DNA of 64,000 nt. Source: Amoebophrya sp. A120. Its lineage: Eukaryota > Protista > Dinoflagellata. Each line of letters starts with the position of its first letter. The first letter of the stretch is position 1. Position numbers and translations under genes: made by a program. Location of the stretch: contig CAJINV010000008.1 in assembly GCA_905178155.1 (NCBI GenBank), positions 434,001 through 498,000 on the forward strand. The letters are read 5' to 3'. This document shows, piece by piece, positions 1 through 43,100 of the stretch. The notes beneath the pieces were generated by a model that worked only from the letters and a program-made list of their open reading frames with translations, was not told where the DNA came from and did no database searches.

Positions 1-345
1 AAGCAGCGCCTGAAGCCTCGAAGCGGCGTCTGAAGCCTCGAGGCAGCAGCGTGCGAAGCCTCGGGTCAGCAACGTGCGAAACCTCGAGGCAACAGCGTGA
101 GAAACCTCGAGGCGGCAACGCGCGAAACCTCGAGGCAGCAGCGTGAGAAACCTCGAGGCAGCAGCGTGCGAGGCCCCGAAGCAGCAGCGCGCGACGCCTC
201 GGGGCAGCAGCGTACGAAACCCCGAGGCAGCAACGTACGAAACCTCGAAGCAGCAACGAACGCACGAAGCCACGGCGCAACAACGTACGAAACAACGCGC
301 GAAGCCCCGAAGCCGCGGGGCCCCGAAGCAGTAAAGCCTCGACGA
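1..345. repeat. Degenerate minisatellite, ~23-bp unit GAAACCTCGAGGCAGCAGCGTGC
   Basis: Repeated gaa(a/g)cc(t/c)cgaggcagca(g/a)cgt units read directly. The + strand is T-poor. Confidence 0.85.
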
Positions 346-349
346 AGCC

Positions 350-735: not shown

Positions 736-739
736 GACC

Positions 740-1130
740 CGAAGCGAAGATAAAAGCCCCGAAGCAAAGAAGCCGCGAAGCGAAGAGAGATGCCCCGAAG
801 CGAAGAGAGGCGCCCCGAAGCAAAGTAGCCCCGAGGCGAGGATAGAAGCGAAGATAGAAGCCTCGAAGCCGCAGCGAACGAAGTCTCGAAGCCGCGGCGA
901 AGCCTCGAAGCCGTAGCGAGGCCTCGAAGCCGCAGCGACGCCCCGAAGCCGCAGCAAAGCCCCGAAGCCTCAGCGACGGCTCGAAGCCGCAGCGAAGCCT
1001 AGAAGCCGCAGCGAAGCCCCGAAGACGCAGCGAAGCCTCGAAGCCGCAGCGCAGGCCGCTCGAAGCCGCAACAAAACCTCGAAGCATCGCGGCCTCGAAG
1101 TAACAACGCCGCAGCGAAGCCGCAGCGGAG
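740..1130. repeat. Degenerate minisatellite, ~19-bp unit CGAAGCCGCAGCGAAGCCT
   Basis: Many cgaagcc/gcagcgaag units, related to block 1-345. Confidence 0.8.
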
Positions 1131-2730: not shown

Positions 2731-3206
2731 CTGGCGCTTTGAAAATAGCAGGCAGATGGGCCTGCCCGTGCTGAAGCGCCGACGACGGTTTTCCACAGAG
2801 AAACGCTGAGGGCTATTATTCATCTAGCGGAATACTATTAAGTCTGCAGGCTACTGGACACGGGAAGCGGGATAAGGCTAGTAACATGACACGTATACGA
2901 TCCTTCTTTTCTGCGGAATAACTACCATGGTGTCGCAAGTCCAGAAGTATTTACCGCCTCCGGTATCCAACAAAAGAAAAAAATCTTGTAGATACATACT
3001 CGAACTACCCCCATACACAGATTATCTACCATAACTCTTGGCATCAGGTGAGTATTTTCATCCCAAAAATGAAAAATATCATAGCCATGCATACAGGACC
3101 AGACGAGTGAAACTTATCGGGGACGAGCAATCCCGATGGAATCTTTGTAGAGTCGTTGCCGATGATGTTGTGCAAGTCTGGAACATACTGATCTTCTTGT
3201 ATCCTA

Positions 3207-12700: not shown

Positions 12701-15700
12701 TACACGAGGGCCTTGAACATCTTGAGCACGCAACAAAGTATGGAATCGTACAGCCCAGCAAATGGATTTTTGGCTTTGCTGCTCTCGCTCGATTTGTTCG
12801 TTGAACTTCTGACATCCAGCTGCTGTCCGCTACTCGCAGCCTGAGGCTCCAGATTAGAGGTTGTCGTTCCGGAAGTTGAACTGCTGGCGCGCTGGTGCGC
12901 GGCGCTGGCAGCCTGTCCTGGTTGATCTGAAGCCTGGCCCGTCGTTCCGGTCGCCGACTCGGGGACCGCCGAGGTCGGTTCTTCGACCACCTCAATGGGC
13001 GGGTTTGGCAGATTGCACAGGTAATAGAGCAACGCGTAGAGGGCCTCGCAGAAGTCGGTTTCCTTGACTAAGCGGATGCGGTCGCGCACGTCAGATATTT
13101 GGACGATTTTCTCCACCAGCTGCAGTGTCATGGCCTGGATGTACACGATTTGCTCGTGCGGCCAGTCGTCTCGCGATCGCTTATGCATGGTATCCGGCGC
13201 GAAATTGATCTGGTCGATGGACTTGTGGTAGAGGAACTTTATGAGGTAGTTCAATCGTTTCGCGCGCCAAATGGCCTGCACCAGGTCCCCGGACTGGTTC
13301 AGCTCGTTGTCGAGGAGAAAATCGTGCATGAATCGCACCCCGGCTTCAATCAGTTCCCTCCCTCCACGGTGGCACATCTCCAGCACATTGTCGATTAGAA
13401 ACTCGTGCGCGTAGTCCTTCAGGCCCAGGGAACCGAGTACCCTGATGTTCTTGTAGGTCGCGATCACAATGTGCAGCATCATCCGGCGCAAAACGGGCGC
13501 GTCAGGTGTGGTACACTGCACCGCCAGGTACACGTACCCGTTCAGCGTGCCGTACTGCGCAAACGCATCGTAGATATCCTGAAAGTTGATGATGCTGTTC
13601 CCGTAGAACTCGATCCATTTTTGCACCACCTCCCGCCGGTTCTCGTGGCTGGACCGAGCCAGACCCAAAAACGGCCGGATGTCTGGCGTGGTGCGGATCA
13701 GCATTTGCAGCAAGTCGAAGTTCAAGTCCGTTGTCAACGCAGAGAACAACTTCGCGAGGAGCAGTACCCTCGCATGCGTTGCCATCGGGCTCATCATGCT
13801 ATCCACAATCTCCGGGAGCATGGCTCCCTTCAAGAGGTACATGCGACTTCGGTACTGCCCCTTCTCGACAAACTCCAGGATAATCTTGATGCTGGCGATG
13901 CAGAGCTCCTCCTTTGTGCCCCGCAGAATTTGCTTCCAGATCTTGTTCATGTCGATCTGCATCAGGATCTGGCAGGTCTCGTCGTAGGACTTTATCCCTC
14001 GGCCCTCTAAGAGACTCTCGAGCGCGCGGCAGGCCTTAATGCGGAGCGGCAGCGAAATTGCCTCGCAGATGTAGTACACACAGAGGTTTACAAATTTCTT
14101 GCGCATCGTCGCGAACGCTTTGTACTCGTAGAGTTCCGCCATCGTGGGCAGAATTTGGTTCAGGCACTCCGTCGCGACGACGAGCGCGGGGGCCGAATAG
14201 CGGTACTCTTCTATCAGCTTGTAAGCCATATCCAGCGTGTAGTCGAGCAACTTTGGTGCTTCGTCCAGCATCTTCTTCGCTTGGTGCTCGAGCAGGAAGC
14301 ACACGATGCGAACCCAGAGGAGCCGCTGATCAAAGTTGAACTGCGTGGGTTTCTCCTTAGCGGGCTCCTGCGTGCACTGCTCAGGCTCCTCCTGCTCGCT
14401 CTCGGCGTCCTTGGGATCCAGGATGCTGTCGGTTTTGTCTGTATCCAAAGCAGTTTCCGGCACCAGCGTTCCGTCCTCGTTGCGGACCATGTTTGCCGCT
14501 GCTCCGCTTGTGTTGGACGACTGCGAGGCGTTGCTGGTCCCGACATCCTTCACGACCAGGTGCGCCGGAATGGTCGCGCCCTTCGCCGCCTCTTTGGGGA
14601 GCTGGCAGTTGGTTGACAACATCTTGTCCACGTCGAAGTGCTTCGTGATTTCCCCCGTATCCGGATCGATCTTGGTCAGCATGGGCGCGGTGGGGTAGTA
14701 GTTTTCGAACAGGTTCACCAACGTGAGACATACCTTGAACTCGTTCATCAGCAGCTCCTGCGATTCCGGATTTTTTATGGTGTGAAACAGGATGAGCAGT
14801 AAGCGATACCGACCCATGCTCAAGTCCCGGTTGTAGCGCTCCACGTCCGTGGACAACCCATCCATAATGCGCTTCTTCTTCTTCTTACCCTTCCCCCCGG
14901 CGCCCAGCGCCTCAAGCGGTTTCCTCGTGACGTTGACCTCGAGAAACCGCTCGTTCCTTGATCGCCAGCCCTGCGCGAACTCGATGCAGGGATGGAAGGT
15001 AATTGCCTTGGGGCTGGACCTAGCCTGCTCCAGTACCATGTACACCAAATTGAGGAAAATGCCGTTCTTCAACTCGTTCAAGCTCGGCCCGTGCATGTGA
15101 AGTGTGATAGCCTCTTTCCTGGGTAGTCTGTCCCAGGCTGTCAACGCATTCGCGATAACCGTCGAGTCATCTAAAATCGCCTGGCAGTGCTTGAAAATCT
15201 CCGGCACCACCATGCTGGTCGACACAAACTGGGAGTTTCCGTACAACGCCAGCATAAACACACAGAAGTGCTTGTCCATGGGGGACATCAGGTTTGACCG
15301 CTCTTTCAGGAAGCGAATTACTACGGGGAGCAGGTCCACCCTGGCGAACGTGTCAAACGTCTCGTCCTTGATGATTTCGGCCTGTCGTGCCTCCAGCTGC
15401 GCCTCGCGGTCGGTCAAAAAGATTGTCATCATATCAAATGTAAAAATGTCTGGGTCTGGAAGAGTCATGCTGTTTTTGCATGACACAGAAGGTCTGGCAT
15501 GAAAGCTCTAGCATCACAGGTTTCGAGAAGCTTCCGCAATGCCGAATCCGCATGACAAATCCCCTAGTTCGCTGACAGAAAGTGGGCAGCTTTTGCTACG
15601 TATGCATGAGAGACTTTTCTGTATTCTGAAATACGCATTACAAGTTGCGTTCTTCCAGACCCAGACATTTTTACATTTGATACATCAGGTAGAGGACCCA

Positions 15701-18700
15701 TCGGATCCGGTACATGCGCTGCTCAACCTCCTCCGCGTGCTTCGCGAACCCGCCTTCCTTCTGTTCGATCTTGGTTAGCTCGTTCAAAAACTGCTCGAAC
15801 CTTCGCAATGCGTTCAGGTGGGCTTTTTTCGTGTACATGACCATCTGTACCCGTTTCCCGCCGACAAAAGCGAAGTCCACCATGATCGGGAACATCAGGT
15901 CGAAGTCCACCTTGAGCAGGTCCTCGATGTTCGTCAATAGCCCAATCAAGAAGTCGTCGAGCTGCGGAAAATTTTTGTAGTTCCCGCCACCGCACGTCGC
16001 GGCCACGAGTAGCGACATACACTTGCGGATCATATGGATGTGCCCGCGGTCGGCAAGCTCTTCCAGGAACTGGCCCCACACCACGAATTCTTTTTGGAGC
16101 AAGGTGGACCGTAACAGTTTGCTACCAGTGTACTGCTGCTCAATCAGCTGTATCTTCTTCGCCTTCTTCGGCGCAGCAGTAGTAGAGGCGGGCTCGTCTT
16201 TCTTCTGCTCTCCTGCTTGCGCCACTGAACCTCCTGTCGCCGCACCGTCGGTTTTGCTATCTGTGGCGGCTTTGTTCTCTGTTGCAGCCTCTTCACCTTC
16301 TTCCGCGTTCTCGTTTTCCTCGTCCTCATCCTCCTCGGGCTCTTCCTCCTCGTCTGGCCCCATCGCCTCGATCAGCGCTTGCTCCTCCGCGGCCTCTGCC
16401 GCAAAGTCCTCGTCGGTGAGCGTGGATACCAGAACCGTGGTTGCGATCGCGACCCGATTCACGTTCAGAGGGGCGAGCAGGTTCTGCTGCAGCATCTGCT
16501 GGAACACTTTGACGAAGTGGATGTATTGATCATGCAGGTAGTGAGCCTCGGGATCCACCAGCGCGTAGGTGAGCATGCCGCAGGCAAGTTCCGGAAATTG
16601 CAGGTACTTCTCCGCCATATTCATGCACACCACGGTTTGTCGGTGCAGCTTCGCGCGGATACATATAAGCGCCGCCTTGTTCACGATGCTTCGGCTGGTC
16701 CAGCCGAGCAAAAACGGGGCCACCTGCGACAGCATGTCCGGGAGTGGCCGCTGGTAGAAGAAGGGCGTGAAGCACGGGATCGTCAGTCCGTGCAGGATGA
16801 ATTCGCTGACACATTCGAGATACAGGTCGGTCAGAACTCGCTTCGAGCGATCAATCTTGAACAGAAGCAGGTCGACGCGCTGAAAGTAGTTTTCCACTAA
16901 ATTCACACGACCGGCCAAGTCCGCCAGTTTGGTCAGCACAAACTGCCTCGCTTGTGGCGACTGGAACTCAACCGCCTCGTGCCCACGGATGTGCGGTGGC
17001 GCCTCGTCGTCGGGCAAGTAGGTCGCTTGCAGGAAGATGTGTGTGGTCATGTAAAACAAGTACTCTTCGTGGAACGCGAATTCCGAAGGTGCAATGTTAC
17101 TGTTCTTCACCAAGCTGAACCCCGTTTTCTGCATGGACTTCTCCGCGGCGACCCGACGTTGCTTTTGGTACAAGCTCTCCTTACTCCCCGCACCCAATGC
17201 GTCCTTGCGCATGTTTTGGTCTTTGTTTTTGTTTTGGTCCATCAGGTTCGCTTCGTCGCCAGCCGAGGTGTCCTGCATGTGCTGCGAGTCCATCTCGTAC
17301 AGCTGGTCGCGTTCCAGGTTGCCGAACTTGATCTTCTTTTTTTCCTGCTGTTCGCTGTTGGGCCGCACGTGTTTTTGCGGGTACAGCATGCAGTCGAGCA
17401 CCAGCTGGAAACAGTGCGTGAAGGAGAGCAGTTGCACGGCGATGTGCTTGTCACGGATCATCACGAAGAGTATGCTGATGTACAGGCACCGATCCTCCTT
17501 GCACACGCTGTTGCACAGCTGGAAGATCGCCTCGCGGTCCTCTACGGCGATCGCGTCGACGGGCTGCATCTCCTTCACGACGTGGGTGTAGACGACGTTG
17601 CGGATACTGGCCAACACCAGGCGGGACAGCACGTCCAGCTCCTTCTGCGTGATGTCTTCGTCTTCGCGCACGGCCTTCGCCAGTTCGTAATTCTGGTCCT
17701 TGACCTTCTGCGGTCGTTCCATGAACTCCGGGTCCTCGTTATCAAATGTAAAAGTGTCTGGGTCTGGAAGAATGCAACTCGTCATGCTAAATCTGAAGCA
17801 TGCAAAAATCTGTGTTGCATGATTACCAAAAGTCGTCCAGTTTTGACCAAGTCGGGAGGGAGTTGCTCATGCAGGATAGGCATGAGAGAGATCGCACAGA
17901 ATCTGTCATGCTAGGTCCTGCATTCCAGACCTCATGGGTCATGGGAAAGCTGCATGACAAATCTGACAATCTTCCAGACCCAGACATTTTTGCACTCCAT
18001 ACTCGTCTATCAGCGACAAGTCTGCGGCCGCCATGAGGTTTTTGTACAGCAGCGCAAGCCGTTTCACGCTTCCGGGCCGGGCGTGAATGCTGGTCGCCTT
18101 CAACACGGTGAGATTGTGCACGATCACGATACTGTGCCGAAACAGCACCGGGGATTCCAGACTGTCGAACACAAAGTCGTAACTCGGCTGGTCGGCCGCG
18201 ATTTGTTCAATCACTTTCGGCAGTTTGGAGAAGGTGCAAACGAGTTTGTAGTGCCACAAAAGCTGGTTCGGGTCGGTCAACATCCGTAGGTTGGCCAAAA
18301 ATTTCGGGATATTATTTAGGATATCGCCCGTTGAGGCGTTTTTGCCGCTGGTGGAGCTCAGAATTGACAAAATAACGGCCGCGATCTCGCGGCACTCGAA
18401 CGGGATGTTGTCGTTTCCGGGCCCGTATCCCGCGATCTGAAGCGTGTTCGGAAAGGTGTTGGATTGAAAAAAAAAGCCCTGCTTCACCATGCAGTAAAGC
18501 GTGCGCAGCATGGTCTCCTCAATGCACAGCCCCGCAAACCGCTTTTCGTGGCCGACGCGGTGCTCGTGCATCGAAAGCAGAGAGTACTCCAGCTTCGAGC
18601 GCTCCACCCGCGACCAGTCGATCATGGCGCCCTCCGTTTTCTTGTCCTCGTGGCTGAAGAGTGTCGAGAAGGTTAAGAGCATGGACTCGAACAATTTCGT

Positions 18701-21700
18701 CTTCCACTTCGCGTGGTTCTCGATGAACCTCGGCGTGTCCACCAGCCTGTTGGTGCAAGCGACCAAAAATTCGATCAGCAAGAACAAGTCTAGGCTGTGC
18801 ATCACGCGATCTATTATCGTCTCGAGCTGCAGCCTCTCGGTTTCGGTGGTCATGATGTTTCCCTTGCCGCTCGAGAACCCCGCGGAACTGTAGGCCGTGC
18901 TGGTATTGTGGTTGGTGCCCGCTGTCGCGCTCGAACTTGACAACTGCGCCGTGGCGGAGAGCTGCTGGGAGCCCGACTGCCCTTCGGCTGCGCCGGCCGC
19001 CTTGCTCTTCACCACCGGCTCCTTTACGGTTTTCTCCTTGCTGGGACTGGCGCCAACCGTGCCCGCCAGGGACGACGTGGCGGTCTGCACGGAGACCGTC
19101 ATTCGGTTGTAGATGTCGACCATGATCTTTTCGTGGTCAATCCCGATGGTCGCCACGTTTCGGATGACGCGCACGAAAGCATCCAGCACATCGATGTACT
19201 CGTCCGCGGACGAGACCCCGTCGTACGTCCCGAATACGCTGCTAAAGGTTTTTCTCAGCAGCGGAACCAACGATGCGTTATTCAGCACGATGGTCGTCAA
19301 CGTGGGGATCCGGTAAGTTAACAGGTTGCTGATGATTTGCAACACTGCCAAAATTAGTTTCGACCGGTCGAAGTTCTGCAGCTTCATCGAGAAGCACTCC
19401 CCGAGCAAGTACAGGCACTGTGTGAACAACCTCGGAATCCCCTCGGTTTCGTTCAGAACCAGGCAGCGCTTCACCAGGTTGGGGTCCTTCGCCTGTTCCG
19501 CGACCGATTTGTCGTCCGCCGTGGCGGTCTGGGTCGGCAGCGCGACTTGGTCGAGATTGCAGACGTCTTTCTCGGTGATTAGATGCTGGATTCGCTCGTA
19601 CTCCCGCAGAATTGCGTCCTTCTGGTAGTACAGTTGCTGCGAAATCGTGTAGACCGCCAACATCTGCGTGTTTGGGTTGTCGGCCTGATTCAAAGCATCG
19701 AAAAGGACCCGGAGGTAGACTGGATCAAGCAGGGAGTAATACTGCGGCATGTCGCTCGTCACGTGGTGCAGCACCCCGTGCGCGTCCTTGTGTTTCAGCT
19801 GACAGTAATCCTGGAACGTCGCCGTGAGTGTGATGTACTGGACGGCTTCGGTCAAAATTCTCGTTCTCAAGTGGTGGTAGCGGTAGACCACCTCCGGCAA
19901 AAATTGTCTGGCTTCGTGGTGCAGGACTAGCTTGTCCTGGCAGCCCCAGCGCCAGAACTCGATCTTGTCCAAGTTCTTCGGCTGCTCCTGCAGGGCGTTG
20001 TGTTGCGGCATTTTCTTCGGGTTCATGCCCACGAAGAGCGACTGCGAGAGATTGGCTCGCAGGCATATGACCACATTCTCCAGTACCTGATTCCAGTTGC
20101 AGTCCTTGATGTGAACCGCCAGCGGAGTCATACCTTCGCCGCTCGCACGAACCGAAGACTTGAAGGAGTCCAGGTCCGCGTTGGTGCTTTGTTTCACCTC
20201 GGAGTAGGGGTCCACGACGTCCTCCAATTGATACACCTCCAGCACCGTGCGGTTTACCGCCGTGCACATTTTGTAGTAGATTTCTGAGCGCAGAACGTAG
20301 TTGAACATGCTGTCAGTCAGCGGCTGCGTGCCGATCTCCCGCAGCAGCTGTGATAACCCGGTGAGAACCCGCACATCCCGCGAGAGAAAGTACGCCACAC
20401 GCCGCCGCGTGGCGAGATCCGTGTGCGCGAACTCCTTCATGTCCACCAGTGGGGGTTTGTCGTCCGGGTTGTCGCTGTCCTCGAAGGACTTGTCTTCGAA
20501 CATGCCATTGTCGCTGCGCTGCACGGGCTCGTCAACAAGCGGTTTGCCGGTTTCGGGATCGGTTGTCGTGTACAGACTCCCGATTCCGAGCGGGAAAAGG
20601 CGGACGTAGAGAAACTCGAGAATGTTCAGCACCATGGACACCACGTATTCCTTGTTCATGGGTTGGGACTTCACCAAAACAGGTCCGTCTGCGTACTGCT
20701 CGCCCCATCCGAAATGGTTCCAGGACGAAAAGAACAATGAGTTGACGATCTGCAGCATCGCTAGGGTCAAGTTCAGCAGTTCCGCATCGCAGGCGGTTTG
20801 GTTCAGCAGATGTTGCTTGATCCGGTGCGCCCGCTTGGGACTGAGGTTTTCCATGTCCGCGAGAAGGTCGTCCTTCTGCAGATTGCGCTGCCGAAACTGC
20901 TCTTTCGTCACTTCGGAGTACACCTGGATGAATTTGTGCCTCAGCGCCGAGCACAGCATCAACACGTTGCTCTGTTCGAAGATGGTCTTGGACAGTTTTG
21001 GGCTGGCGTGCGCGAGCACTTGAACGAAGAAGACTAGGTTGTAGTGCCGCAGCAGCTTCGTCTCTGCGGGGAAGTTTGCGTCCTTCTCGGCTAACACGCC
21101 GAGACCGCGGTGTCGGGCCATGCGGAACTTCTCGAGCTGTAGCTGGCGGATGCGGTCCTGCTCGGCGTCCTTGGCTTTTGCGGTGTCCGCCACGACCCAC
21201 TCGCCGTCGCGCATGACGCAGGCGACCACCATGGAGAAGCAGAGAAAGTAGTTCAGCCGGAGTTCCAGCTCCTTCACGATCTGGTCCGGAAACATCAGGG
21301 TGATGTTCGTGAACGCGCGCATGCTGCGGTTCACGGTCGACATGGATTCCGAGTAGACGATCAGGTAGACAATCAAGTGCAGAAAGTTGTCACAACACGC
21401 CTGGGTCAGCTCCGCCATGTTGAACACGCAGCAGTGGTCAAAAATTGTCGCGAAGTACTCCACCTCCTCAGGGTTCACTGCAGTGCTGTTTCGCGTCACC
21501 TGATCCTCGAGCTGTTTGCAGTACTGCAAAAAGTCCGCGCACTGGATCAGATCGATGCAAACGGTTTTCTCAATCGAGAGCGCGCACAGCAACCGCGCGG
21601 CCACCAACCGGATGTCTTTGAATGGCAGGTGCAACAGCATGGACAGCAACGGCACCATCTGCATGTGCGCCAGGGCGGTCACGCCATAGGGGGTGCTAGC

Positions 21701-24700
21701 GACCATGGTCAGCAGTCTGCACATGATCCGAAAAGTTCGCAGCGCCCGGTCGTATTTTATCCTCCAGTCGCGCTTCACCTCGAGGGGCTCTTTTGTGTCA
21801 GCCTCCTCTGGTGGCTTTGTCCCATACTTCGCCTCGTAAATCTTGTAGAAGACGCAGTGCTGGTGTAACCTGGCCTTGAAATAGTCGATGAACACGTCGT
21901 GGCGAAGGATGTCCATCACTTCGGCCTCAACGTTCACCGCGTAACTTAAGATGTGGAGAAGCGAATCCAGTCCCGGCGCGACCGGGTGGACGAGCGAGAG
22001 CCCGACAGGTGTGATGGGCGTGAGCACGGATTTCACGGCCTCCGCCATCTGCTGGTTGTTCTTAAATTTGCCCGCGCCAGGACGTGTGCCTGAAGATAAG
22101 TTTCGGTTTATTCTTTTACGCAATTTTCGAACGTGCTCTGCGTTCTGAAAAAGTCTCATTCTCAACTCTAATCTCAATTTATCATTTGATGATGATGAAA
22201 CAAGACCGACTACTCTAGAAGTATGTCTGAAGCAAAACAAAAACGACGACCAGCTTGAGTTTCACTAGTACCTGGCTTTGTGGGAGATGACCCCATTTGG
22301 GCTTTGGAGCCCGTCCTTGAGTCTGCTGTTCCATCTTCGAGCATTTCTACGTCCTGGTCGTTGGCCGTCGGTATCCCCGACTGGGCGCCCACCGGATAGT
22401 CCCAGTCACGCACAAACTGCTTCGCTGTGACGTTGTTCATGCCGGTCATGTCCATCACCAGTTCCGAATCCTTGATTCCCGGCTGGTCCTTCCCCTTTGC
22501 GCGCTTCTTGTAGGGGTTGATGGGCACCAGCCCCAACGCGCTGCACACGGTTCGCGCGACGTTCGCGGCTCCCATCCCTCGGTGGTCAATGGGCAACGAG
22601 GTCAAGAAATCGCTGTGGTAGAGTTCCCCCGTCTTGTGCGTGAACGTGGGGTCGAACCGCCCTACCTCTTTCTGGTCCTCGGTCCACGTCGCCGGCTTGA
22701 ACCGGGACACCTGCCGAGCCTCGCCCGGACTCCCCACCGCCTCGTCGTAGACGCGCGGAGTCTTTCCGGTCATTTTATTCCGTCCGCTTGGACTGGCATT
22801 GCCGTCCTCGTCTTCGAGTTCGGCCGGCCCGCCGCGCTCCAGCCGGCGCTGGATGTTCTGGTAGCGCTGGAATTCCAGAGCAATCTTCCCAAGAAACCCT
22901 TGCGCGTACCACTTCGACCAGAACTTGCCACCCTGCGGGGTCCGCAACAGCAAGCTCATCAAATGCGACGTGGAGTGCAGCAAATCTTCAGACTTTTTCG
23001 CGTCCTCGAACAGTAACTGCACGAAGCCGTCGAGCTCCGAAGACAACAGCAGTTGCTCCACCAAAATTGGGTATTTGGTGATCAGCGCCGTACTTCGCAC
23101 GGCCATTTCGTACAAAACGTCCTCTTGCTCTTTGTTCGGGGATTTCCTTCGCTTTACCGCGGCTGCCTGCCACAACTTCGGGATCAGCTGCACGTTCTCC
23201 CAGAGCTCCGCGTCATTGCACGCGATCGTCAGGAAGTAGCAGGCCTCGAACGCGCGCACCTGCACTTCGAACTGGTCGTGGAAGTCGATCAACTTGAGCA
23301 GAATGACCAGCACCTCGCGGTTCGTGAACTTGTACCGCAACTCCGCCGGCGCCATGCTCATGCGGTGCAGCGTTTCGATCAGGAGCACGCGAATCTCCGG
23401 AATGTGGAAGTGGGTTTCCGCGATTTTGCTGATGAACAAGAAACACGCGCGGTCCGGCTCGATGTTGGCCGGGTCATTGTTGATGTACAGCAGGTTTGCG
23501 GTCAGCAAAATGTACTTTTCCAGCGAATTGTCAATGTTCTCGTGGTCCAGGTAGTACTGCGACATCGCCTTGAAAATCTTGCCCGCAACGTGCTGCTGCC
23601 GGGCCAGATTCGCGAGCGTCGAAAACACCACACGCCGCAGCTCTGCGGTGACGACTGACGAGGGCACCAGTTCGACGTAGAAGTCGAGAATTTTCGGTTC
23701 CTGCAGGATCGCGCCGTGGCACTCGGCAGTGCAAGAGAGGTTGTGGCGCGTATGGATTGCAAAAATGCCTGGGTCTGGAAGATTCCGGGGTTTGTGATGC
23801 ATATTTTGTATGATCCATGTAATGCATGATCTAGCATCACAGATTTTTAGAGGGCTTCCTGATGCCTATTCCGCATGAGAAATTCCCTCTCCGCGTAACA
23901 CAAACTGGACTCCTGTTGCTCGTCACGCAATACAGAACTTTTTGGAATCCAAAGACAGCATGACAAGTTGCAATCTTCCAGACCCAAACATTTGTGCAAT
24001 CCATAGAGCGAGAGCAAACACAGGTGGAAACACTCCTGGTACAGCTGCATGGAGTCCTCCGTGCCCGCCGTTGGGGCGTCCAGATGCTTGCCGGTCTCGT
24101 GCGGGTCGTTTACCCCGTAGCCCTCGATGTCGATGCCCATGCCCTTCGCGATGCGCTGATTTTCCACCACGATCGGGTCCAGCTCCTCGTCGTCGCCGAG
24201 GTCGTCGTCCTCGATCATTTCCTCCTCCAGAATGTCCTCCACCGTGTGCATGGGCGCGGCGTCCTCGAGCGGCGCCGGGACGTCCACGCGGCGGAACAGC
24301 AAAGCGAGCGGGCGCTGCTGGAACAGCGGCACGATCTCGTCCTGCCGCAGCCCGTGCACGGGCTGGTTGTTGATCGTGATCAGCGCGTGGCTCTCCGCCA
24401 TCAGACTGGATTCGTAGCGCTGCGCGGGGGTACCGTCGATCACGCCCAGAAAGATGGGTGGGTCCAGCCAACGAAGCTTTATTCCCAGGGGGGCTCGGTC
24501 CGTCTCCTTGAACGTGATCGTCGACTCGTACAGCGGCGGCGCGTGCGCCAGCTCGCGCTGTTTCGCCAGCTTGCGCATTCGCAGCTCCTGGCGCCGCTTC
24601 GCGTACTCCTCGCGGCGCTTCTTGTCGCGCTTCGCCTTCTCGTCGGCGGGTTTCGTGAACACGCCGTGGAGAAAGGTGTAGGAGTACTGCAGCGTGTCGG

Positions 24701-27700
24701 CAAGGAACGCGATCACGTGCTCGCTGTTCAACAGTCGGTGCATCTCCTGGAAGTGCGTGGTCAGGTTTGCGAGGGCGCGGTTCATCTCCAGGATCACCTG
24801 GAACTGCTCCACAAAGTACAGCCGGCCCGCGAGGTTGGTGAACAGGCGGAGCATCCCGGACTTGATCACGAAGTCCAGGCACTCCACGTGCACGCAGCAG
24901 TTCGCAAGGAACCCGATCAGGTTCCGCCGCACGAAAATCTGGTTGCCGGTCAGCAGCGGAAACATGAACGCGGTGTCCATGTCTTTGATCATTTCCGCGT
25001 CCTTGCTCCGGATCCAGTGCGCGAACATGTTGGAGGCCAGCATGGTCAAAACCTCCTGAACCGCGTCCATGCGCATCTGAATCATGCGAACCACGACTTT
25101 CGGATCGTCGATCACGAACGGCGCGAAGTAGGACAAGGCCGCGACCGTCTCCAGGCCGATCCCCGCCATTTCCACGCCGACGCCCATCTCGATGCACCGC
25201 CCGATCAGCTTCATGATCTGCCGCACTTTGGATTGCAGGTTTCCCATCGTGGGGAAGGAGAGAGCCAGCGCCTCGGGCACGACAACCGACGGGTCTGCCG
25301 GGGGCACCAGGTCGGAGACGCCCGACGTTTTCTTTTTCTTCAAGCCGAGCTTCTGGTCTGCGCGCTGCGGCTTCTTGTCCATGTGCCGCGTGACGGACTC
25401 GATCTCGTACTGCGTGGGGCGCTTATCGAAGTTCTGCACCCGGATGCGCTCGCCGGCGGGGATACTCGGCAGAGGCGCCCGGTGCGCCATCTCGCCCTGC
25501 GCAAAGTCCGCACGCGCGCACATGCTGTTGTGCACCATGACGAAGGTGCACTTACTATCCTGAGTAAAAACGTACCCACACCAGAGTTGTAATGCAAATC
25601 TGCATGCTGAAAATGTTTCTCATGCGGAGCTCCATGAGAAGCATTTTCTAGTCGTGTTTTGCAATTTGTCATGCTCCAATCAGCATGGTATGCTAGATCT
25701 GTGATGCTGCTGAGCTAGCTGAAACAGCACTATACTACGAATCCAAATTTGTCATGCAAAACAGCCAAAACTTGTGGATTTGTCTAGCCGATTCCCCATC
25801 TTGACTCTGGTGTGGGTACGTTTTTACTCAGGATACTTACTGATGTACTCCTGTACCTCGTTCAGCATGATTAAGCCCTCGCGCTCCGCGAGCTTCTTCG
25901 GGTTTTGCGGTTCGGCCTCGTCCGTGATCCCCAGCCGCTCCTCCTCCTCCTTCTCCTCGCGCACCTCCTCCATCTGCTGCCGGACCGCGCGGGCGAACTG
26001 CAGAATCACTTCGATGTTCAGGGAGCCGAGCAAGTGGCCCGCGATCGTGGTCATGAACTCCGCGTTGTTGCGGGACAAGCCGCCCTCTTGGCTGTCGCCC
26101 TCACCCTCCTTCGACAGCCACTTGGCCATGGGGTCTTTCTCCTTTTTCTGCATCCGGTCGCCGGTGACCGGGTCGAACCGCAGCTTCATCTCGTGCACCA
26201 GGTTCACGATCACGCAGAGCGCCATCAAGTACTTGTTGAAGGACAAAGCGGTGGCCGTGACTTTGGTGGTGTCCCGCGTCAGCAGCGCCTTCTTGTACTT
26301 CGAGTTCAGCTGACTGGTGTCGAAGGTCTGCTGGAACCGGCGGCAGTAGTCCATGAACAGGTTCATCAGCGGGGCGGCGTTAGACAGCAGCGGCTTCATG
26401 CCCAGGTCGTCACTCAACCGCGTCATCAGCGAATAGGAAAACACCTCCGCGAAGGCGTCGGACGCGCCCTGCACACCAAACAGCACGGTGGGGACCATGT
26501 TGTTCTGGTTCACAGCCTGCTTCAAATGCGGGAAGTACTCCCGGTCACTCGCGCAAATGCACATGACGCGCAGCACGTGCCGGTACACGAAGGAACTCGG
26601 CAGCGTGCCAACCAGGGACAGGAAGGACTCGCAATCCAAGCGGTTCGACTGCAGCTCGTCGCTGGTCAGGCTGGGGCGGTAGGCCCGTTGCAGGGCTTTC
26701 AGACCTGTCGTGCCGTAGTGGTACGCCTGGTCGATGTCGCCGGCAGGCAGGCGCAGCAACGACACAAAGAGCTGCACGCGGGTCGCCGGGAAGAGCAGTG
26801 ACCGGAGGAAGAACTTGTACTGGGTGGGACTGCTTGCGAGCTGACTGATCCCGTACACGGAACAGATCAGCAAGTCGACGCACATCTGCCCGTTGAGCCC
26901 GGAGCCCGCGAGCGTGATGAACATCAAAAACGTCTCGACCAAGTTGTACTCCACGAACTTGTCATGGTGTTTTGGGTCGGACTGGGTCAGCTCCGCGAGC
27001 AGACCGCACAGAATCGCGACCGTTCCGTAGAAATGCTCCGTGCGCTTTTCCTCCGTGGTGCTGTTGATCACGACGTGGATGATGTTCATCAGCTCCGGCA
27101 GGTTGACGATCACGCGACTGCGAAACTCCCGACTGCGCGAGATGGACAGCAACGCGGACAAGCAGCGGAACCCGACGTGCTCGTTGCTGCTCCCGATTCG
27201 GTGGAAGGAGAGGAGTAACGGAATGCTGTCCATGTTGATGGGGTCCTTCAGCAAATTCGCAATCACGCGATGCACGCCGTGCAGCATCTCCGCGAAGAAG
27301 AGCAGGATGGATTCGCCACTTGCCTTGTCGATCTGCTCGCTGTGCAAGAGGTTGTAAAGCAGCTGCGGCACGTTGTAGCTGATCAGCCGCTCCTGCACCT
27401 CCGTGTCGTGCTCGAGGGAGATCAAAGCGAAGCAGTGGATGATGCACCGGGTGATAAACGGGTCGTGCGGGGTCAACATCCCCACCTCGGACTCCTCTTT
27501 TCGTTTCTGGATCCGCGACATCTTCTTCATGCTCTCGGACACGCCCTTCTTCACCGTGGGCAGTAACTGCGCCAAAACCTCCACGTAGTTCTCCTCGATG
27601 TTTTTTTCCGCGTGCTTCCCGAGGAAGATCTCGCGGTTCGACTTGTACTCCAGGAGGTTTTGCAGACAAAACACACCCAGCTGCTTCAAGTCGACTTGAT

Positions 27701-30281
27701 TCGAGAACAGGAACGAAGAAAAGGTGTCCAACCCTCCGCTCATCCCGAGCTGCGGGCGGTAGATCTCGGAGCACGCGAAGGGGATCAGCGCCTTCAGCGA
27801 GTTCGTGACCAGGTCGACGTGCGACTCGTTCTCGCAGGCGTCGAGCAGCACGCGAATCCCGTTTTCCTGCGAGATGGACCGCTGCGCGAAGTCGTCGTCG
27901 GACAAGTAGAGCAGGGACAACAGGCAGCAGAGCCGGACGTGTTCGTTTTTCGAGGTGTTGTAGATCTCCACGAGGATCCGCAGCCCCCCCTGCAGCACGA
28001 ACTCGCGATGCGTGTCGGCGTAGTACAGAAATGCGGAGAACATCAGCGACAAATGCGGACTCAGCTCCTGCTCCTCCAGCAGTCCGCCATCCCACGAATC
28101 GATCAGCGACGCGAAGAACATCGACCTGGTCAGTTCCTGGCGGACGCTCATTTCATCCGTCAATTGCCGGCACAGGTCGCAGAAGTAGATCGCGGAGGTG
28201 AGCGACAGCTTCTTTAAAAAGTCCCGCTGCAGGTACCGCTTTTCGAACCCGCACTGCAACAGCATCAGGCCGGTCTTGTCGTCGCACTTGGACAAGTTGT
28301 GAAAGAACTGGGTCGCAAAGTCCACAAAAATTGCGTCCGCCCCCGCGCTGTCGCCCTGCGTGGTCGAGTCCAACGCGGATTTTTGCTGCGCCGCCACCTG
28401 CAGCGAGGGTTCCTTGGCCAGTTGCGCGTCGTCCACACCATGGGACACGACGTTCAGGATAGCTTCCAAATACGCCTTTTTCAGGCACGCGTTGGTGTTC
28501 GCGGCGTCCGACGCGGCGTTCGCCAGCGCGAGCATGCAGTACCGCCGGATCTCGATGTCCTCCTGCAGGTTACAGGCCAGAAACACAATATCCATGATAT
28601 CCTGCTCGGTGGGAGTCGTGGGGTGCGTCGCCGTGATCGCCGCTAAAATCTGGATGGCGTTCACGCGGATGGAGTAATGCAGCTTCTCCGTCATCGCGAT
28701 GGACACGACGTTCGACAGGAGACCGGTCGCGAGCAGCACGTGGTGGAATTTGGGCGTCAACGTCAGGTGGAGGAAGGCGCGAATCAGGTGCTGCTGAACC
28801 GCGGTGGAGTCGCTGAAAATGTGCGACTGCAGAATCGTGAAGTACCGACTCTCCACAATTTTGTCGTGCAGCTCCACGGACTCGCACAAGTTCGCGATGA
28901 TGCACAGCACGATCGGTACGAACTCGGCGTCGTTGGTCAGTGCGGCCTTGTCCAAACATTCGATCACGTCCTGCTCGAGCAACAGGTACGCATTTTCCCT
29001 CCGGAAGGAGAAATGCAGGAGAATGTCCAGGACGATGGGGATCAGCTCCTTCGGACTGGCCGGGTTGCGCGTGATCCCGATGATGATCGGCAGCACCCCG
29101 AGCTGGGGGAACCGCTCCTGCCCCTCGGGCGTGACCGTCAGCCCGCGGATCAGAGCCAGCGTGTAAAACATGATCTTGTAGTTCTCGGTATCCTGAGTAA
29201 AAACGTACCCACACCATAGTCAAGATGGGGAATCGGCTAGACAAATCCAGAAGTTTTGGCTGTTTTGCATGACAAATTTGGACTCGTATTGTAGTGCTGT
29301 TTGAGCTAGCTGAGGAGCATCGCAGATCTAGCATACCATGCTGATTGGAGCATGACAAATTGCAAAACACGACTATAAAATGCTTCTCATGGGGCTCCGC
29401 ATGAGAAACATTTTCAGCATGCAGATTTGCATTACAACTATGGGGTGGGTACGTTTTTACTCAGGATACTCGGACACGATGAAGCGCCACACCATGTTAT
29501 CAAATGTAAAAATGTCTGGGTCTGGAAAGTTGCAACTTGTAATGCTAATTCTGGATCGTGCCAGAATCTGTCTTGCATGGATGCCAAAAGCTGTCCACTT
29601 TTGACCAAGTTGAGAGGAAGTTTCTCATGCAGAATAGGCATGATAGGGATTTCGCAGAATCTGTCATGCTAGGCCCTGCATTACAGGCATCATGGGTCAT
29701 GACAAATATGCATGACAAGTCTTGCATTCTTCCAGACCCAGACATTTTTGCATTTGATACATGTCGTCCGTGCGCAAGTCGACCATCATCTGTCGGTGGA
29801 TCGGGTCCGCCGTAAAGTTAGACAACGCGAACAGGCAGTTGATGATCACTTCCTCGATGTTTTTCGCGTTTTTCAGCACGAGCACCACCCCGTTCAAAAT
29901 GTTCAGCTCGTGCAGGATCGGCCAGAACAGGTTGCTGGTCGCGAAGTTCCCGATCGCGATCAGGATGTACACGGTAACCTCCGACACCTCCTCGTACAGG
30001 ATGGGTGCTATGTGTCGTATCACCTCCTCTTGCAGCAACAGGGGAAAGGTCCCGACGTTGACGGACAAATTACTGATCGCCAAGGCGGCGTATTTTCGAC
30101 ACATGTCGTCGAGCGAGATGATCAAGGGCAGAATTGCGTCCTTCCACCCGCCGCCCTGCACGATCCGGAGCTGGTACGCCCGGTTCGAGCAGTGGTGCGC
30201 CAGTGCTTTGATCGCATGACGCTTCTCCTTCACAGATTTCAGGATCTTCAACGACGAAATCAATTCGCCGTACGAAGACAT
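6722..30281 (-). CDS. Giant Armadillo/HEAT-repeat protein (>6,000 aa by rough exon sum) with an internal PDZ-like domain; candidate Nd9-like alveolate protein
   Basis: The N-terminus has Vac8-like ARM repeats (KYAALAISNLSVN, ILIAIGNFATS, CLFALSNFTAD, CIIANLCES). ORFs 29697-30281, 25824-29171, 23847-25538, 15671-17785, 12127-15486, 11671-12111 and 10463-11224 join in frame across introners (e.g. DDM|VWRFIVSE|NYKIMFY, ISK|CTFVMVH, LLSL|HNLSC, IDE|DPEF, YLM|TIFL, RHL|LRTV, YDVL|PYTT). Probable GT-AG introns lie at 22138-22250 and ~12095-12298. The last exon reads IGGHKALHNLSRYGDSTEVRQTATMLLTKLA...STM* (TAG at 6722-6724). Exon linkage between ~7400 and ~10600 is inferred. Confidence 0.75.
6882..7160. 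mobile_element. Introner, family B (279 bp), TSD GGCCT
   Basis: TIR TATCCT(A/G)AG(C/T)AAAAACGTCCCCAC. GGCCT at 6877-6881 and 7161-7165. Removal gives NKIGG|HKALHNLS. A GC-AG register is possible. Confidence 0.93.
11253..11423. mobile_element. Introner, family C (171 bp, ~60-bp foldback TIR), TSD GGACG
   Basis: TATCACA(C/A)AGAAAAAA(G/A)CTGGC(T/A)GGGCATATTTGTAATGC..AAATAAATACACA is inverted at both ends. GGACG at 11248-11252 and 11424-11428. Frame restored. Confidence 0.93.
11479..11740. mobile_element. Introner, family A (262 bp), TSD AGATG
   Basis: Family A TIRs. AGATG at 11474-11478 and 11741-11745. Near-identical to 17740-18001. Confidence 0.95.
15432..15682. mobile_element. Introner, family A (251 bp), TSD CATCA
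   Basis: Family A TIRs. CATCA at 15427-15431 and 15683-15687. Opposite internal orientation to the 11479, 17740 and 29498 copies. Confidence 0.95.
17740..18001. mobile_element. Introner, family A (262 bp) with mismatched termini, TSD CTCGT
   Basis: Left end TATCAAATGTA, right end TGCACTCCATA. CTCGT at 17735-17739 and 18002-18006. Confidence 0.93.
23751..24005. mobile_element. Introner, family A variant (255 bp, TATGGATTGCA termini), TSD GCGCG/GAGCG
   Basis: TATGGATTGCAAAAATGCCTGGGTCTGGAAG ... CTTCCAGACCCAAACATTTGTGCAATCCATA. The TSD has one mismatch. Frame restored. Confidence 0.92.
24288..24527 (-). other. PDZ-like domain within the giant ARM protein
   Basis: ESTITFKETDRAPLGIKL...VIDGTPAQR...LITINNQPVHGLRQDEIVPLFQQRPLALLFRR shows a PLGI carboxylate loop, a G-T-P-A motif, I-x-x-I-N and a C-terminal RP-L-x-L-x-F pattern. 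Confidence 0.65.
25556..25835. mobile_element. Introner, family B (280 bp), TSD CTTAC
   Basis: TIR TATCCTGAGTAAAAACGTACCCACACCAGAGT. CTTAC at 25551-25555 and 25836-25840. Near-identical reverse complement of 29189-29468. Confidence 0.95.
29189..29468. mobile_element. Introner, family B (280 bp), TSD CTCGG
   Basis: Family B TIRs. CTCGG at 29184-29188 and 29469-29473. Frame restored. Confidence 0.95.
29498..29759. mobile_element. Introner, family A (262 bp), TSD CATGT
   Basis: Family A TIRs. CATGT at 29493-29497 and 29760-29764. Leaves an 8-codon micro-exon (VWRFIVSE) before the next element. Confidence 0.95.
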
Positions 30282-40100: not shown

Positions 40101-43100
40101 CACCAATCCTTGTACTTCTCGTTCCACAGGATCACGATACCAGGACCTGTGCCGTCGATCTTGATATCGGCAGTTTTTTGTATCACACCACGCTCGTCAC
40201 GATCGTAAAGATAGATTGGCCGAGTCAACGAAACCGTCTGCTCCTCTTGCTCACCTGAAGTGTAGGGCAGTAGGGACACTGACATTTGTTTGCAATAATA
40301 CGCACACCGCAGCGGGGGTACGACAACAACACATCATCTATCAAATATTTGTGGATGAGGCAACCTTTATTTTTGCTCCTTTGCATACCTAAACCTACCA
40401 TGTGGTCATTGCTTACATCACTTCAAATATACTGGAGCATCCAGGTTTCGATTATACCTGTTGGCTTCTTAATTTCGTTTCCGAAAGCGTCGGCTTGCAC
40501 ATCACCGTAACCGTCGGTCGTGGTGTGGATCGCCCTAATAATATCCTCGAAAACCCTCTTCCACTGTCCTAGCTGAAGCTTGCCGCGCAATACCGGTGGA
40601 CCACCGATAACCACTTGTGCGGGAAGCATTTCAATGATCAACCGGGCAAAAATGTCGCAGCCTTGCGGGAAATCCCGGGCGCTTTTCCCGATGAAAGCGT
40701 CTTTGGTTTCCGTGGAATTGATGGTAAAGACGGTCGACGTGAGGATCTCTCCGTACTCTCCCAACACAATGGCACGGAAACTTTGGCGAACCACCGCATT
40801 TTTTCCGCCCGTTTTGCCCTTTCCTTTTGCGCCCCCCGCGGCAGAATCATGCGTGGCGCTCTCGTCGGCGTAGATGGAAAGGGTTCGCACGCCTGCCGCC
40901 ATCGGGTTGTAGTGCGGACGCTGGGGATCTCGAATGAGCGCGCGGCCGTTGCTCACGTCCTCGATGACGGTTGCGCCAAACTCCTCCATCTTCTCGCGCA
41001 GCTTCGCAGTGTTCTCCGCCGAGACGTTCGCGTTGTTCTTTTGCTGCGTGTTTTCCAGCTCCTTCCGAACGTAGTCATCGTCAAGTGAGTACTCCAAAAA
41101 GGGCAGGGGGGGCTTCTGATCCAACATGCCCTCAAACTCCGCAAGCGCCTTCTGTTCGATTGCTTGCCGTGCCACATCACGAAGTTCATCCTTGAACTCG
41201 TCCCACGTCGCATCCACCAGCTCGTCGGTCAGCCGCAGGCACAGCTCGCGCCGCTCTTGCATCCACTCGTCTTTGTAGTACTCCTTGCGCCCACTGAAAA
41301 CGTCGGGGAAGAAGCACCTTTGCATCAGAGAAAAAAGCGGGTCTTCCTTGGCAATGATGTGCCCATTGTGCAGCTGCAGTTCGTCGGACGTGGAAGCGGA
41401 GATTTTCAGCTTAGACTTGTCGACACCCTCCAAGTTCGTCTTTCCCGTCCGCACCAATGCCTTGGTCACCCACCAGGGCTGATACTCCTTGTCGAATTGC
41501 TCCTTGTCGATGACCAAATTTCGGTCGCGAATTTCCTGCAACTCAAGCGCATCGATCCTGTCGTCGATTTTTCCCCCCGTTTCTCCATTAGTCAAGGCTT
41601 TCATCTTGGCTTGTTCCTTTTTTCTCAGTTTCGCCTGCAGTCCCTCTTTCTGCGCTTCCATGTATTTATTCTGTTTCACGCCGGTTTTCGGATTCTCGCA
41701 GTTACTGGCCTCGTAGCACTATCCGATGCAAAACTATCCCAGCCGTACCATACTGAGTGCAGGTGGTGGGCATGATGGTTCTCGAACAGCGTCCTGATCT
41801 GAATCTGTGAGAGGACAGATTCAATGTCCGCTGTTCTGCTTTTTGAAAAAAATCATATGCATAAGAGGCTGTACGATTAATCGACCCCCTTTTCGATACC
41901 GAAAAGGGGGGTAGAAGCGGGAATCTGACCGAGCTTACCCCCCCACGCCCCCCTTTTCGAATTCCGGGGGCTGTTTATCGCGAAACCTATCGCAAATCTG
42001 AATCCCGGCGGCACGGCGCGTTTCACGCCTTTCACCGCTTTGCTTTTTCAAAAGCGCAGCGGCAGCCACATGCGGCGCCCAGCTCCGCTGGATTGCGCGG
42101 CACGCTAGAGTGCGCAAAATACACAGCGCCGATGCTATGGAGCGAGTTCTCGTTTTTTCTTTTTCTTTTCAAAAAAAAAAACCGCAAGGGAAGCAAAGCG
42201 TAAGCGGCGCGCTTTCTGCTTCTCAAAATAAAGCCGGCTCCCGATCTCCCAAAACAAAGGGGGCGGCTTTCTTTCACAGAGTCCAGCAGCAGGACAGCTG
42301 CCCCAGAGTGAATCGTCTCCAACTTGATAGCAATCCCAGTTAGTTGTAGGCGTAGACCGTGGAGCCACTGTGCAAAAAAAGAGACGCTTCGCAGTAGCTT
42401 GGGAGCAGTTTGTAGAGCTAGACCCACTGCGGCGCAGCTCTACTGCTCAGAAACGGAGGCGGTTCGCAATGCATGATCATCCCGAAGCTTCTTCTCCTGC
42501 GAAGTTATTGGCCGCATTGCACGAAAACAGGGCTGCCACGCAATAGACCACCAGGAGGCAGCGACTTGTAACGCAGCATTGCACAACCACCCTCGGCATG
42601 TTGAAGCGACCATCTCAGCACTTCCTGCATTTGCATTTGGAAAAGCTGAGGCGGCCACTTCGACCACTGGGGCGGCACGCTCTCCGCTGCATGTTCTCCG
42701 CTGCGCGCGCGCACCAGCGCGCGCCGCGAGCTTTTTTTTCAGTTTGCGCGCGCGCGTCACGCGCTTGAAGCGATTTCTGTTGTTGCATCCGTATGCCGAA
42801 TCGCGCGCGCGCCGCGCGAGCCACAGACAAAAATTCTTTTCGTTGCTGCAGAAACTGCAACAGAAGGGAGACGCGCTGAGAATCCGCAGTAAACAAAACG
42901 AAATTTTTTTTGCCGGGGCGGGGAAGTTGCGGACTTTGATCTTTGAAGTCCGAAAAGGAAAATAGGTCGGGTCCGGAGCGACCAGGCCATGTCTGGATAC
43001 GACCCGCCAGACGATCGACCGCACCTACCCCCCCCTTTTCGGTATCGAAAAGGGGGCCCATTAATCGTACGGCCTCTAAGTAAATGCAATTTCCACCAGT

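What the first reader, a model, noticed from the sequence alone, without database searches (positions are those of the whole stretch)
25556..29468. Near-identical introners sit in opposite orientations in one gene, implying strand-symmetric splicing
Seen: 25556-25835 and 29189-29468 are both 280 bp and near-identical reverse complements, and both interrupt the same minus-strand gene with in-frame repair. Family A does the same: 15432 and 23751 face one way, while 11479, 17740 and 29498 face the other. Inference: an internal directional signal such as a branch point or polypyrimidine tract cannot define these introns. The information must lie in the symmetric TIRs, either as a stem that brings the two TSD copies together or as a sequence read at both ends. 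That points to a structure-guided, possibly non-spliceosomal removal route.
Basis: partly seen in the sequence, partly recalled or inferred. Interest (0 to 1): 0.85.

Follow-up and report, generated by a model that had tools for sequence, protein, structure and literature searches.

The report
Amoebophrya introners spliced in both orientations
Two near-identical copies of a small transposon face opposite ways inside one gene of what is likely the marine parasite Amoebophrya, and both are missing from the assembled transcript; this is a published intron class, and the removal signal likely sits in the mirror-image ends and is likely read by an altered spliceosome rather than by a separate hairpin-cutting system.

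Summary
Observation confirmed. The elements at 25556-25835 and 29189-29468 are 267/280 identical as reverse complements. One 20,279-nt transcript contig skips both, six further elements and two GT-AG introns, which gives a 5,781-codon frame. In another assembly, family copies split about evenly by orientation (40:39, 17:17, 12:8). The elements match the published Amoebophrya A120 introners (Farhat 2021). The signal does lie in the TIRs, but symmetry does not exclude directional signals, because the TIR supplies nearly the same last ~36 nt in both orientations. Either-way introners with GT/GC/GA-AG ends are already described in Polarella and Aureococcus. The cut is polar: five informative joints agree only on 1 nt before and 4 nt after the element. 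That yields N-UAU, like the GUAY of all 9 canonical introns. Two old copies with decayed stems (12/25 and 13/25 pairs) are still joined in that register. G·U is not favoured over A·C (105:111). Best reading: an altered spliceosome reads TIR-encoded ends, and the hairpin helps but is not the ruler. This scan already noted the 1+4 cut elsewhere in this genome.

The parts
25556..25835 (.). Family B introner, 280 nt, TAT...ATA, 32/32 TIR. TSD copies at 25551-25555 and 25836-25840. Inferred intron on the minus strand 25552-25836 (285 nt, 1+4 register).
   Evidence: joint 25549>25835; RNA fold z -8.96
29189..29468 (.). Family B introner, 280 nt, opposite orientation to 25556. TSD copies at 29184-29188 and 29469-29473. 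Inferred intron 29185-29469.
   Evidence: joint 29183>29469; RNA fold z -9.89
10466..30281 (-). Host gene: 5,781 codons after removing 8 introners and 2 canonical introns. One exon has weak ARM-repeat hits below cut-off; function not identified.
11479..11740 (.). Family A introner, orientation 1, 262 nt
17740..18001 (.). Family A introner, orientation 1, 262 nt; arms differ (20/25 pairs)
29498..29759 (.). Family A introner, orientation 1, 262 nt; separated from 29189 by a 24-nt exon
15432..15682 (.). Family A introner, orientation 2, 251 nt
23751..24005 (.). Family A introner, orientation 2, 255 nt. Its two TSD copies differ at one base, which limits the 5' cut to 0 or 1 nt before the TIR.
11253..11423 (.). 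Introner of a third family, 171 nt, 59-nt arm
12093..12320 (-). Canonical GTAC...CAG intron of the host gene, 228 nt (coordinates as the joint is listed; the GT-AG register lies 2 nt to the right)
22089..22270 (-). Canonical GTAC...CAG intron of the host gene, 182 nt (GT-AG register 1 nt to the right)
43270..43747 (-). Old introner in the next gene. TSD decayed, no sliding possible, joint exactly 1 nt before and 4 nt after; arms 12/25 paired.
45875..46165 (-). Old introner; joint allows -4..-1 at the 5' side, so 0+5 is excluded; arms 13/25 paired
41720..43130 (-). Old introner of 1,411 nt with a nested 1,214-nt TIR element; joint allows -2..0
44455..44990 (-). Old introner of 536 nt whose sense 3' terminal A has changed to T; joint allows -2..0
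6882..7160 (.). Third family B copy, same plus-strand orientation as 29189; splicing not tested

Best explanation
These are miniature TIR transposons with 5-bp target duplications that sit in exons in either orientation and are absent from the spliced transcript, likely because each mirror-image end carries the splice information and is likely read, with 5'-to-3' polarity, by the host's altered (reportedly U1-less) spliceosome. Shown: both orientations are removed from one transcript. The skipped piece is the element plus 5 nt. Five informative joints agree only on a cut 1 nt before TAT and 4 nt after ATA. The duplication supplies no GT-AG. Inferred: the 5' arm gives N-UAU, which fills positions +2 to +4 of the host's GUAY donor. 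The 3' arm gives a U-tract at about -19 to -15 and a (G/C)AUA whose A at -7 is a candidate branch or measuring point, with the acceptor set by distance rather than by AG. The ~30-bp hairpin probably raises efficiency by bringing the ends together but does not fix the cut. Orientation is neutral because the TIR puts the same ends in place either way.
For: Both orientations are skipped in one contig. Orientation is about even relative to the host strand: 28:26, 15:11, 10:6, 5:6 in the four largest families among 150 copies, and 40:39, 17:17, 12:8, 15:7, 6:8 among 176 assigned of 234, with equal divergence in both orientations in the 4 families tested. The register is unique over 5 of 12 element joints. 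All 9 canonical introns are GTAY...CAG. The old intron at 43266-43748 begins GTAAC and ends GATA+4. Sense +2 U deviates in 0 of 234 copies and its mirror 3' A in 5 of 234 (p 0.062), and the A is also lost at 44455. Decayed stems are still joined in register. There is no G·U excess. Farhat 2021 found 83 of 89 spliceosomal proteins in both strains, and all the major snRNAs but U1 in A120. Either-orientation introners with GT/GC/GA-AG ends exist in Polarella, and a spliceosome adapted to TIR/TSD non-canonical introns is reported for Fritillaria (review).
Against: No lariat, branch point or knock-down evidence exists here. The +1 base is not fixed to G (72 G, 71 A, 51 C, 40 T) and the last two bases are unbiased (AG in 17 of 234), which is far from any known spliceosomal acceptor. 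The 5'/3' asymmetry is not significant on its own (p 0.062), and overall arm deviation is equal (4.5% vs 4.6%). Family B shows no YURAY in its last 36 nt. The fresh copies fold a very stable terminal stem that would have to be opened. Arms match their own partner slightly better than shuffled partners in 3 of 4 families, and positions 29 and 252 of the focal pair change together. One family is 7:0 in orientation (p 0.016 uncorrected).
Confidence: 0.55

Rival explanations
1. A dedicated non-spliceosomal or second machine, like the unknown one for euglenid nonconventional introns, recognises the TIR hairpin and its conserved base (UAU/AUA plus the A/U run at 11-13), cuts 1 nt and 4 nt outside it, and ligates the exons.
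For: No GT-AG in any register for 123 of 130 copies. Terminal stems with z about -9 to -10 in both orientations. TIR positions 11-13 pair in 146, 149 and 144 of 150 copies. U1 was not found in A120. Euglenid introns have TIRs, TSD-like repeats, a fixed offset and circular products.
Against: Copies at 43270 and 45875 keep the register with 12/25 and 13/25 pairs and an unpaired predicted stem base (pairing probability at most 0.1 at positions 1-3). G·U and A·C mismatches are equal, 105:111. The 5' end matches the canonical donor at +2 to +4. TIR pairing is also explained by transposition at the DNA level.
Confidence: 0.28
2. Ordinary spliceosomal branch points lie in the interior and differ between orientations, each strand happening to offer one.
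For: Interiors are AT-richer than exons and carry a motif on both strands equally (171:171). 29189 has a YURAY at -39 in sense.
Against: 25556 has no YURAY in its last 70 nt. Orientation is even across many unrelated interiors, with no difference in divergence. Interiors diverge twice as fast as arms (8.9% vs 4.5%), although arm-based detection inflates that gap.
Confidence: 0.1
3. The joints are reverse-transcriptase skips across a strong hairpin flanked by direct repeats, or excision happens at the DNA level, so no RNA splicing of these elements occurs.
For: Hairpin plus short direct repeat is the recognised setting for template-switch artefacts (recalled). The evidence here is assembled contigs, not raw or direct-RNA reads.
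Against: Keeping any element gives a premature stop in a 5,781-codon frame. The 43265 joint has zero shared letters and a weak stem, yet occurs in 3 runs from 2 samples in the same register. The DNA-like run X1 lists no joint at the elements, and its contigs run into the element ends.
Confidence: 0.04

Closest known systems
Introner elements / non-canonical introns of Amoebophrya sp. A120 (Farhat et al. 2021, PMC7789003; read: abstract, sections 10-12, 16 and 32, passages, supplement legend passages)
   Same: IR starting TAT, 7 variable nt, then at least three A; 5-bp direct repeats; about 240 nt; no GT-AG; hairpin; RNA-supported removal; many families.
   Different: The text and legends I searched give no orientation tally and call splice positions variable or unknown. 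Here both orientations are shown removed and the register resolves to 1+4. Supplementary figures S19-S25 could not be seen and may show part of this.
Either-orientation introner-like elements of Polarella glacialis and Aureococcus anophagefferens (Roy et al. preprint 10.1101/2020.10.14.339549; read: passages)
   Same: [quoted passage not shown]
   Different: Those use GT/GC/GA and AG ends carried in the element or taken from a biased TSD, and the classes first described there lean to one orientation. Here the TSD is unbiased, AG is not used, and 5 of 6 families show no significant lean.
Euglenid nonconventional introns (PMC12501133 passages; review PMC11282704 section 6)
   Same: TIR stem set at a fixed offset from the junctions, TSD-like repeats, no GT-AG, likely MITE origin.
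   Different: Euglenid motif is CAG/CTG at +4..6 and -8..-6, with circular products; here it is UAU at +2..4 and AUA at -7..-5. Products are unknown here, and stem-decayed copies still splice.
Fritillaria borealis non-canonical introns (as described in review PMC11282704 section 6; primary paper not read)
   Same: TIR/TSD transposon-derived introns without GT-AG, reported as removed by an adapted spliceosome.
   Different: Those mostly have fixed AG-AC or AG-AT ends; here both terminal dinucleotides vary with the target site.

Membership tests
Amoebophrya A120 introner elements | Terminal inverted repeat starting TAT + 7 nt + run of at least 3 A | tested here: met
   against the definition
Amoebophrya A120 introner elements | 3-5 nt direct repeat at the exon/intron boundary | tested here: met
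   5-bp TSD perfect in 12 of 13 window elements, 4/5 in one; perfect in 256 of 346 arm-defined copies in the loci
Amoebophrya A120 introner elements | Repeated in families | tested here: met
   11 families of 3 or more among 150 copies
Amoebophrya A120 introner elements | Removed from RNA without GT-AG | tested here: met
   12 element joints in contigs; GY-AG possible in 7 of 130
Amoebophrya A120 introner elements | Host is Amoebophrya A120 | tested here: inconclusive
   No named genome was held and run names are coded. Identity is inferred from the element signature and co-oriented genes; earlier AI notes say the same but are unchecked.
Spliceosomal (U2-type) intron | GT/GC-AG ends | tested here: not met
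Spliceosomal (U2-type) intron | Donor-like +2..+4 sequence | tested here: met
   N-TAT against GTAY in 9 of 9 canonical introns
Spliceosomal (U2-type) intron | Lariat with 2'-5' branch; dependence on U2/U5/U6 | not testable with these tools
   no raw reads covered the gene
Euglenid-type nonconventional intron | Terminal stem required for removal | tested here: inconclusive
   stem predicted in fresh copies, weak in two old spliced copies, no G·U signal
Euglenid-type nonconventional intron | CAG/CTG motif at +4..6 and -8..-6 | tested here: not met
Euglenid-type nonconventional intron | Excised as a full-length circle | not testable with these tools
   contigs only
MITE (non-autonomous TIR DNA transposon) | TIR, fixed-length TSD, short, unbiased orientation | tested here: met
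MITE (non-autonomous TIR DNA transposon) | Cognate autonomous transposase | not tested
   no genome held; Farhat 2021 reported none in A120

The most novel reading that the evidence does not exclude
Amoebophrya has a second, orientation-blind RNA excision machine that reads the transposon end itself (UAU...AUA plus the A/U run, with or without the hairpin), cuts 1 nt and 4 nt outside it and rejoins the exons. Any insertion of this transposon group, at any 5-bp target and in either direction, would then be a perfect intron at birth.
Probability: 0.28. Interest if true: 0.85.

Novelty: already known. Interest (0 to 1): 0.4.

Why it matters
How Amoebophrya removes its tens of thousands of non-GT-AG introns has been open since 2021. 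This finding narrows the question: orientation and target sequence are neutral, the cut is polar at 1+4, and a perfect stem is not needed. All required information must therefore lie within about 30 symmetric terminal bases. The focal pair is a natural matched control: 95% identical, opposite orientation, same transcript. One lariat or circle assay on it would separate an AG-independent spliceosome from a second machine. The element class is published and either-orientation introners are known elsewhere, so the gain is a sharper test, not a new system.

Tried and rejected
No whole genome was held, so a genome-wide tally of the window's own assembly was not possible. I used 148 loci of assembly JACKZZ01 instead. 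These were picked by an exact 20-nt family A pattern from 15 of 64 parts of the collection. They share only element sequence with the window among the 25 longest hits, may be another strain, and have no RNA check. Host strand there is a Markov-model call: 72 of 75 right on 180-nt test pieces, and consistent in 30 of 30 multi-element loci and 35 of 37. Rows dropped: 319 candidates to 261 (TSD at least 4/5, at most 700 nt, duplicates removed) to 142 strand-called, plus 8 window copies; and 346 to 303 to 234 to 176. No match in viral contigs. No listed holder was on record as RNA. Raw RNA runs X9-X11 had no exon depth and only element-like reads, so efficiency, retention and lariats per orientation could not be measured. 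X8 did not cover the focal gene. The decayed copy at 47435-47761 gave no listed joint (21 joints were not shown). TSD co-option of splice sites was rejected. The G·U test for RNA-level pairing was null, but detection required paired arms, so power is limited. The own-arm concordance is biased by the same filter. Rfam gave no match in the window. Pfam on six exon frames gave only hits below cut-off. Paper searches and in-text finds found no orientation tally or mechanism for Amoebophrya introners. The library lacks most subscription papers, figures are not held, and bioRxiv supplements are closed.

Full report
Observation. The two elements are at the stated places. Each is 280 nt, begins TAT and ends ATA, has a 32-33 nt terminal inverted repeat, and is flanked by its own 5-bp duplication. 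They are 267 of 280 identical as reverse complements. With 35 nt trimmed from each end the interiors align 200/210 in opposite orientation and not at all in the same orientation, and the interior is not self-palindromic. The family A claim is also right: 15432 and 23751 face one way, and 11479, 17740 and 29498 the other.

Are both orientations removed? Run X3 holds a 20,279-nt contig with no differing letters in its listed pieces. It skips all 8 TIR elements between 11253 and 29759, each with 5 extra nt, and two CT..AC (GT-AG on the minus strand) introns. The loss of canonical introns marks it as cDNA. The joined frame is 5,781 codons without a stop, and keeping any one of the ten pieces gives an early stop. 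X4 and X5, from the same sample, repeat the 29189 and 29498 joints. X1 covers all 30 bins like DNA, lists no joint at the elements, and its contigs run into the element ends. The three raw RNA runs had no exon depth, so efficiency per orientation is unmeasured. The host protein is not identified beyond ARM-like hits below cut-off.

What they are. Farhat et al. 2021 (PMC7789003; sections read) describe Amoebophrya A120 introner elements: an IR of TAT, seven variable bases and at least three A; 3-5 nt direct repeats; a hairpin; no GT-AG; and U1 snRNA not detected while 83 of 89 spliceosomal proteins are present. The window fits this. The species is inferred, since no named genome was held. I found no orientation tally in that paper's text or supplement legends, and its figures were not visible. 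Gozashti 2025 filtered for same-orientation matches. Gozashti 2022 allowed both orientations but names Amoebophrya only in its reference list.

Wider tally. A pattern scan gave 148 loci of assembly JACKZZ01 that carry the same families; it may be another strain and has no RNA check. I called the host strand with a codon-position Markov model (72 of 75 right on test pieces; consistent within 30 of 30 multi-element loci). Among 142 such copies plus 8 window copies, orientation relative to the gene was 28:26, 15:11, 10:6, 5:6, 4:2 and 6:0 in the six largest families, with no inconsistent edge. In a larger set found without demanding TAT/ATA, 176 of 234 strand-called copies were assigned: 40:39, 17:17, 12:8, 15:7, 6:8 and 7:0. 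The last has p 0.016 uncorrected. Identity to the family majority did not differ by orientation in the four families tested. Orientation is therefore close to neutral. The duplication shows no position-specific bias, and GY-AG can be read in any register for only 7 of 130 copies, so splice sites are not taken from the target as in Aureococcus or Polarella.

Where the cut falls. A perfect duplication hides the cut, but 5 of the 12 element joints are informative. At 23751 the cut is 0 or 1 nt before TAT; at 41720 and 44455, 0-2 nt; at 45875, 1-4 nt; at 43270, exactly 1 nt. The only shared register is 1 nt before and 4 nt after the element. I had the 0-or-1 limit. The element is symmetric, but the cut is polar. 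It makes the intron start N-UAU, and all 9 canonical introns seen start GUAY and end CAG. The first base is not fixed to G and the last two bases are free.

Stem or sequence? Both focal copies fold a terminal stem in the sense strand (z -8.96 and -9.89), as any TIR must. Three tests asked whether the stem is what counts. First, sense-strand G·U mismatches, which keep an RNA stem, are no commoner than A·C: 105 against 111 over positions 4-25 of 150 copies. Second, two old copies with 12/25 and 13/25 arm pairs and pairing probability at most 0.1 at the three terminal bases are joined in the same register in three runs from two samples. Third, the sense 5' U never varies in 234 copies while its partner, the 3' terminal A, varies in 5 (p 0.062) and in the spliced copy at 44455. 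Results that point the other way: arms match their own partner slightly more than shuffled partners in 3 of 4 families (biased by the detection filter); positions 29 and 252 of the focal pair change together; overall deviation is equal in the two arms; and partial pairing remains in the old copies. On balance, end sequence matters more than a perfect stem, but the evidence is modest.

The last ~36 nt of the intron are nearly the same in both orientations because they are the TIR, and that is the zone where branch points and U-tracts usually lie (established knowledge). The TIR carries a U-run at about -19 to -15, paired in 146, 149 and 144 of 150 copies at TIR positions 11-13, and a (G/C)AUA at -8 to -5. 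Several family A copies read YURAY at -10, but family B does not. An interior motif occurs 171 times in sense and 171 in antisense across 164 copies. Symmetry therefore moves the signal into the ends; it does not exclude directional signals or the spliceosome. Either-orientation introners with GT/GC/GA-AG ends are described in Polarella and Aureococcus. A review reports spliceosomal removal of TIR/TSD non-canonical introns in Fritillaria, and an unknown, possibly non-spliceosomal route with circles in euglenids.

Mechanism. Most likely (0.55), the transposon inserts in either direction with a 5-bp duplication (shown by anatomy). The altered spliceosome takes N-UAU as donor and sets the acceptor 4 nt past AUA using TIR-encoded 3' signals (inferred), and the hairpin helps to bring the ends together (inferred). 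The original exon sequence is restored (shown). A dedicated second machine that reads the TIR base remains open (0.28), mainly because no known spliceosome accepts any two bases at the acceptor and U1 is reported missing. Orientation-specific interior branch points (0.10) and reverse-transcriptase or DNA-level artefacts (0.04) are less likely; the zero-overlap joint at 43265 argues against template switching.

Verdict. The system is the published A120 introner class, and this scan has already described the fixed cut on other pieces of this genome. The added value is the orientation tally and a matched sense/antisense pair for a decisive lariat test. Novelty: already known. Interest: 0.40.

Noticed in passing
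window 41864-43077: A 1,214-nt element with a 48-nt TIR of a different type is nested inside the old introner 41720-43130 and is removed with it in transcript contigs.
   Followed up: partly
window 52990-53597: Family A element of 608 nt whose profile match is broken between about 53040 and 53370, suggesting an insertion of about 330 nt.
   Followed up: no
window 47435-47761: Decayed family B copy with a 3/5 duplication; no joint was listed for it.
   Followed up: partly
window 1-2800: GC-rich arrays of 19-, 22- and 23-nt repeats, possibly subtelomeric.
   Followed up: no
window 25556-25835 and 29189-29468, positions 29 and 252: Paired TIR positions change together between the two copies, which suggests arm homogenisation or compensation; L070 carries a mixed form.
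   Followed up: partly
window 29469-29497: A 24-nt exon lies between two introners of different families; similar B-next-to-A pairs occur in L009, L027, L059 and L064.
   Followed up: no
loci L001-L148: One family is 7:0 in orientation (p 0.016 uncorrected). Removed length is a multiple of 3 in 72 of 164 copies, probably due to the modal family A length.
   Followed up: no
all element families: A shared 9-nt subterminal motif sits about 30-49 nt inside each end and also near position 120, equally on both strands; it may be a transposase or splicing-factor site.
   Followed up: partly
runs X9-X11 on window 10500-30499: Raw RNA runs with the same species label have no exon depth here but hundreds of reads 90-99% like element parts, so related elements are present in some abundant transcripts.
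   Followed up: no
window 4312-4574, 6882-7160, 53651-53958, 57090-57331: Further intact introners with perfect 5-bp duplications, not covered by my read lays.
   Followed up: no
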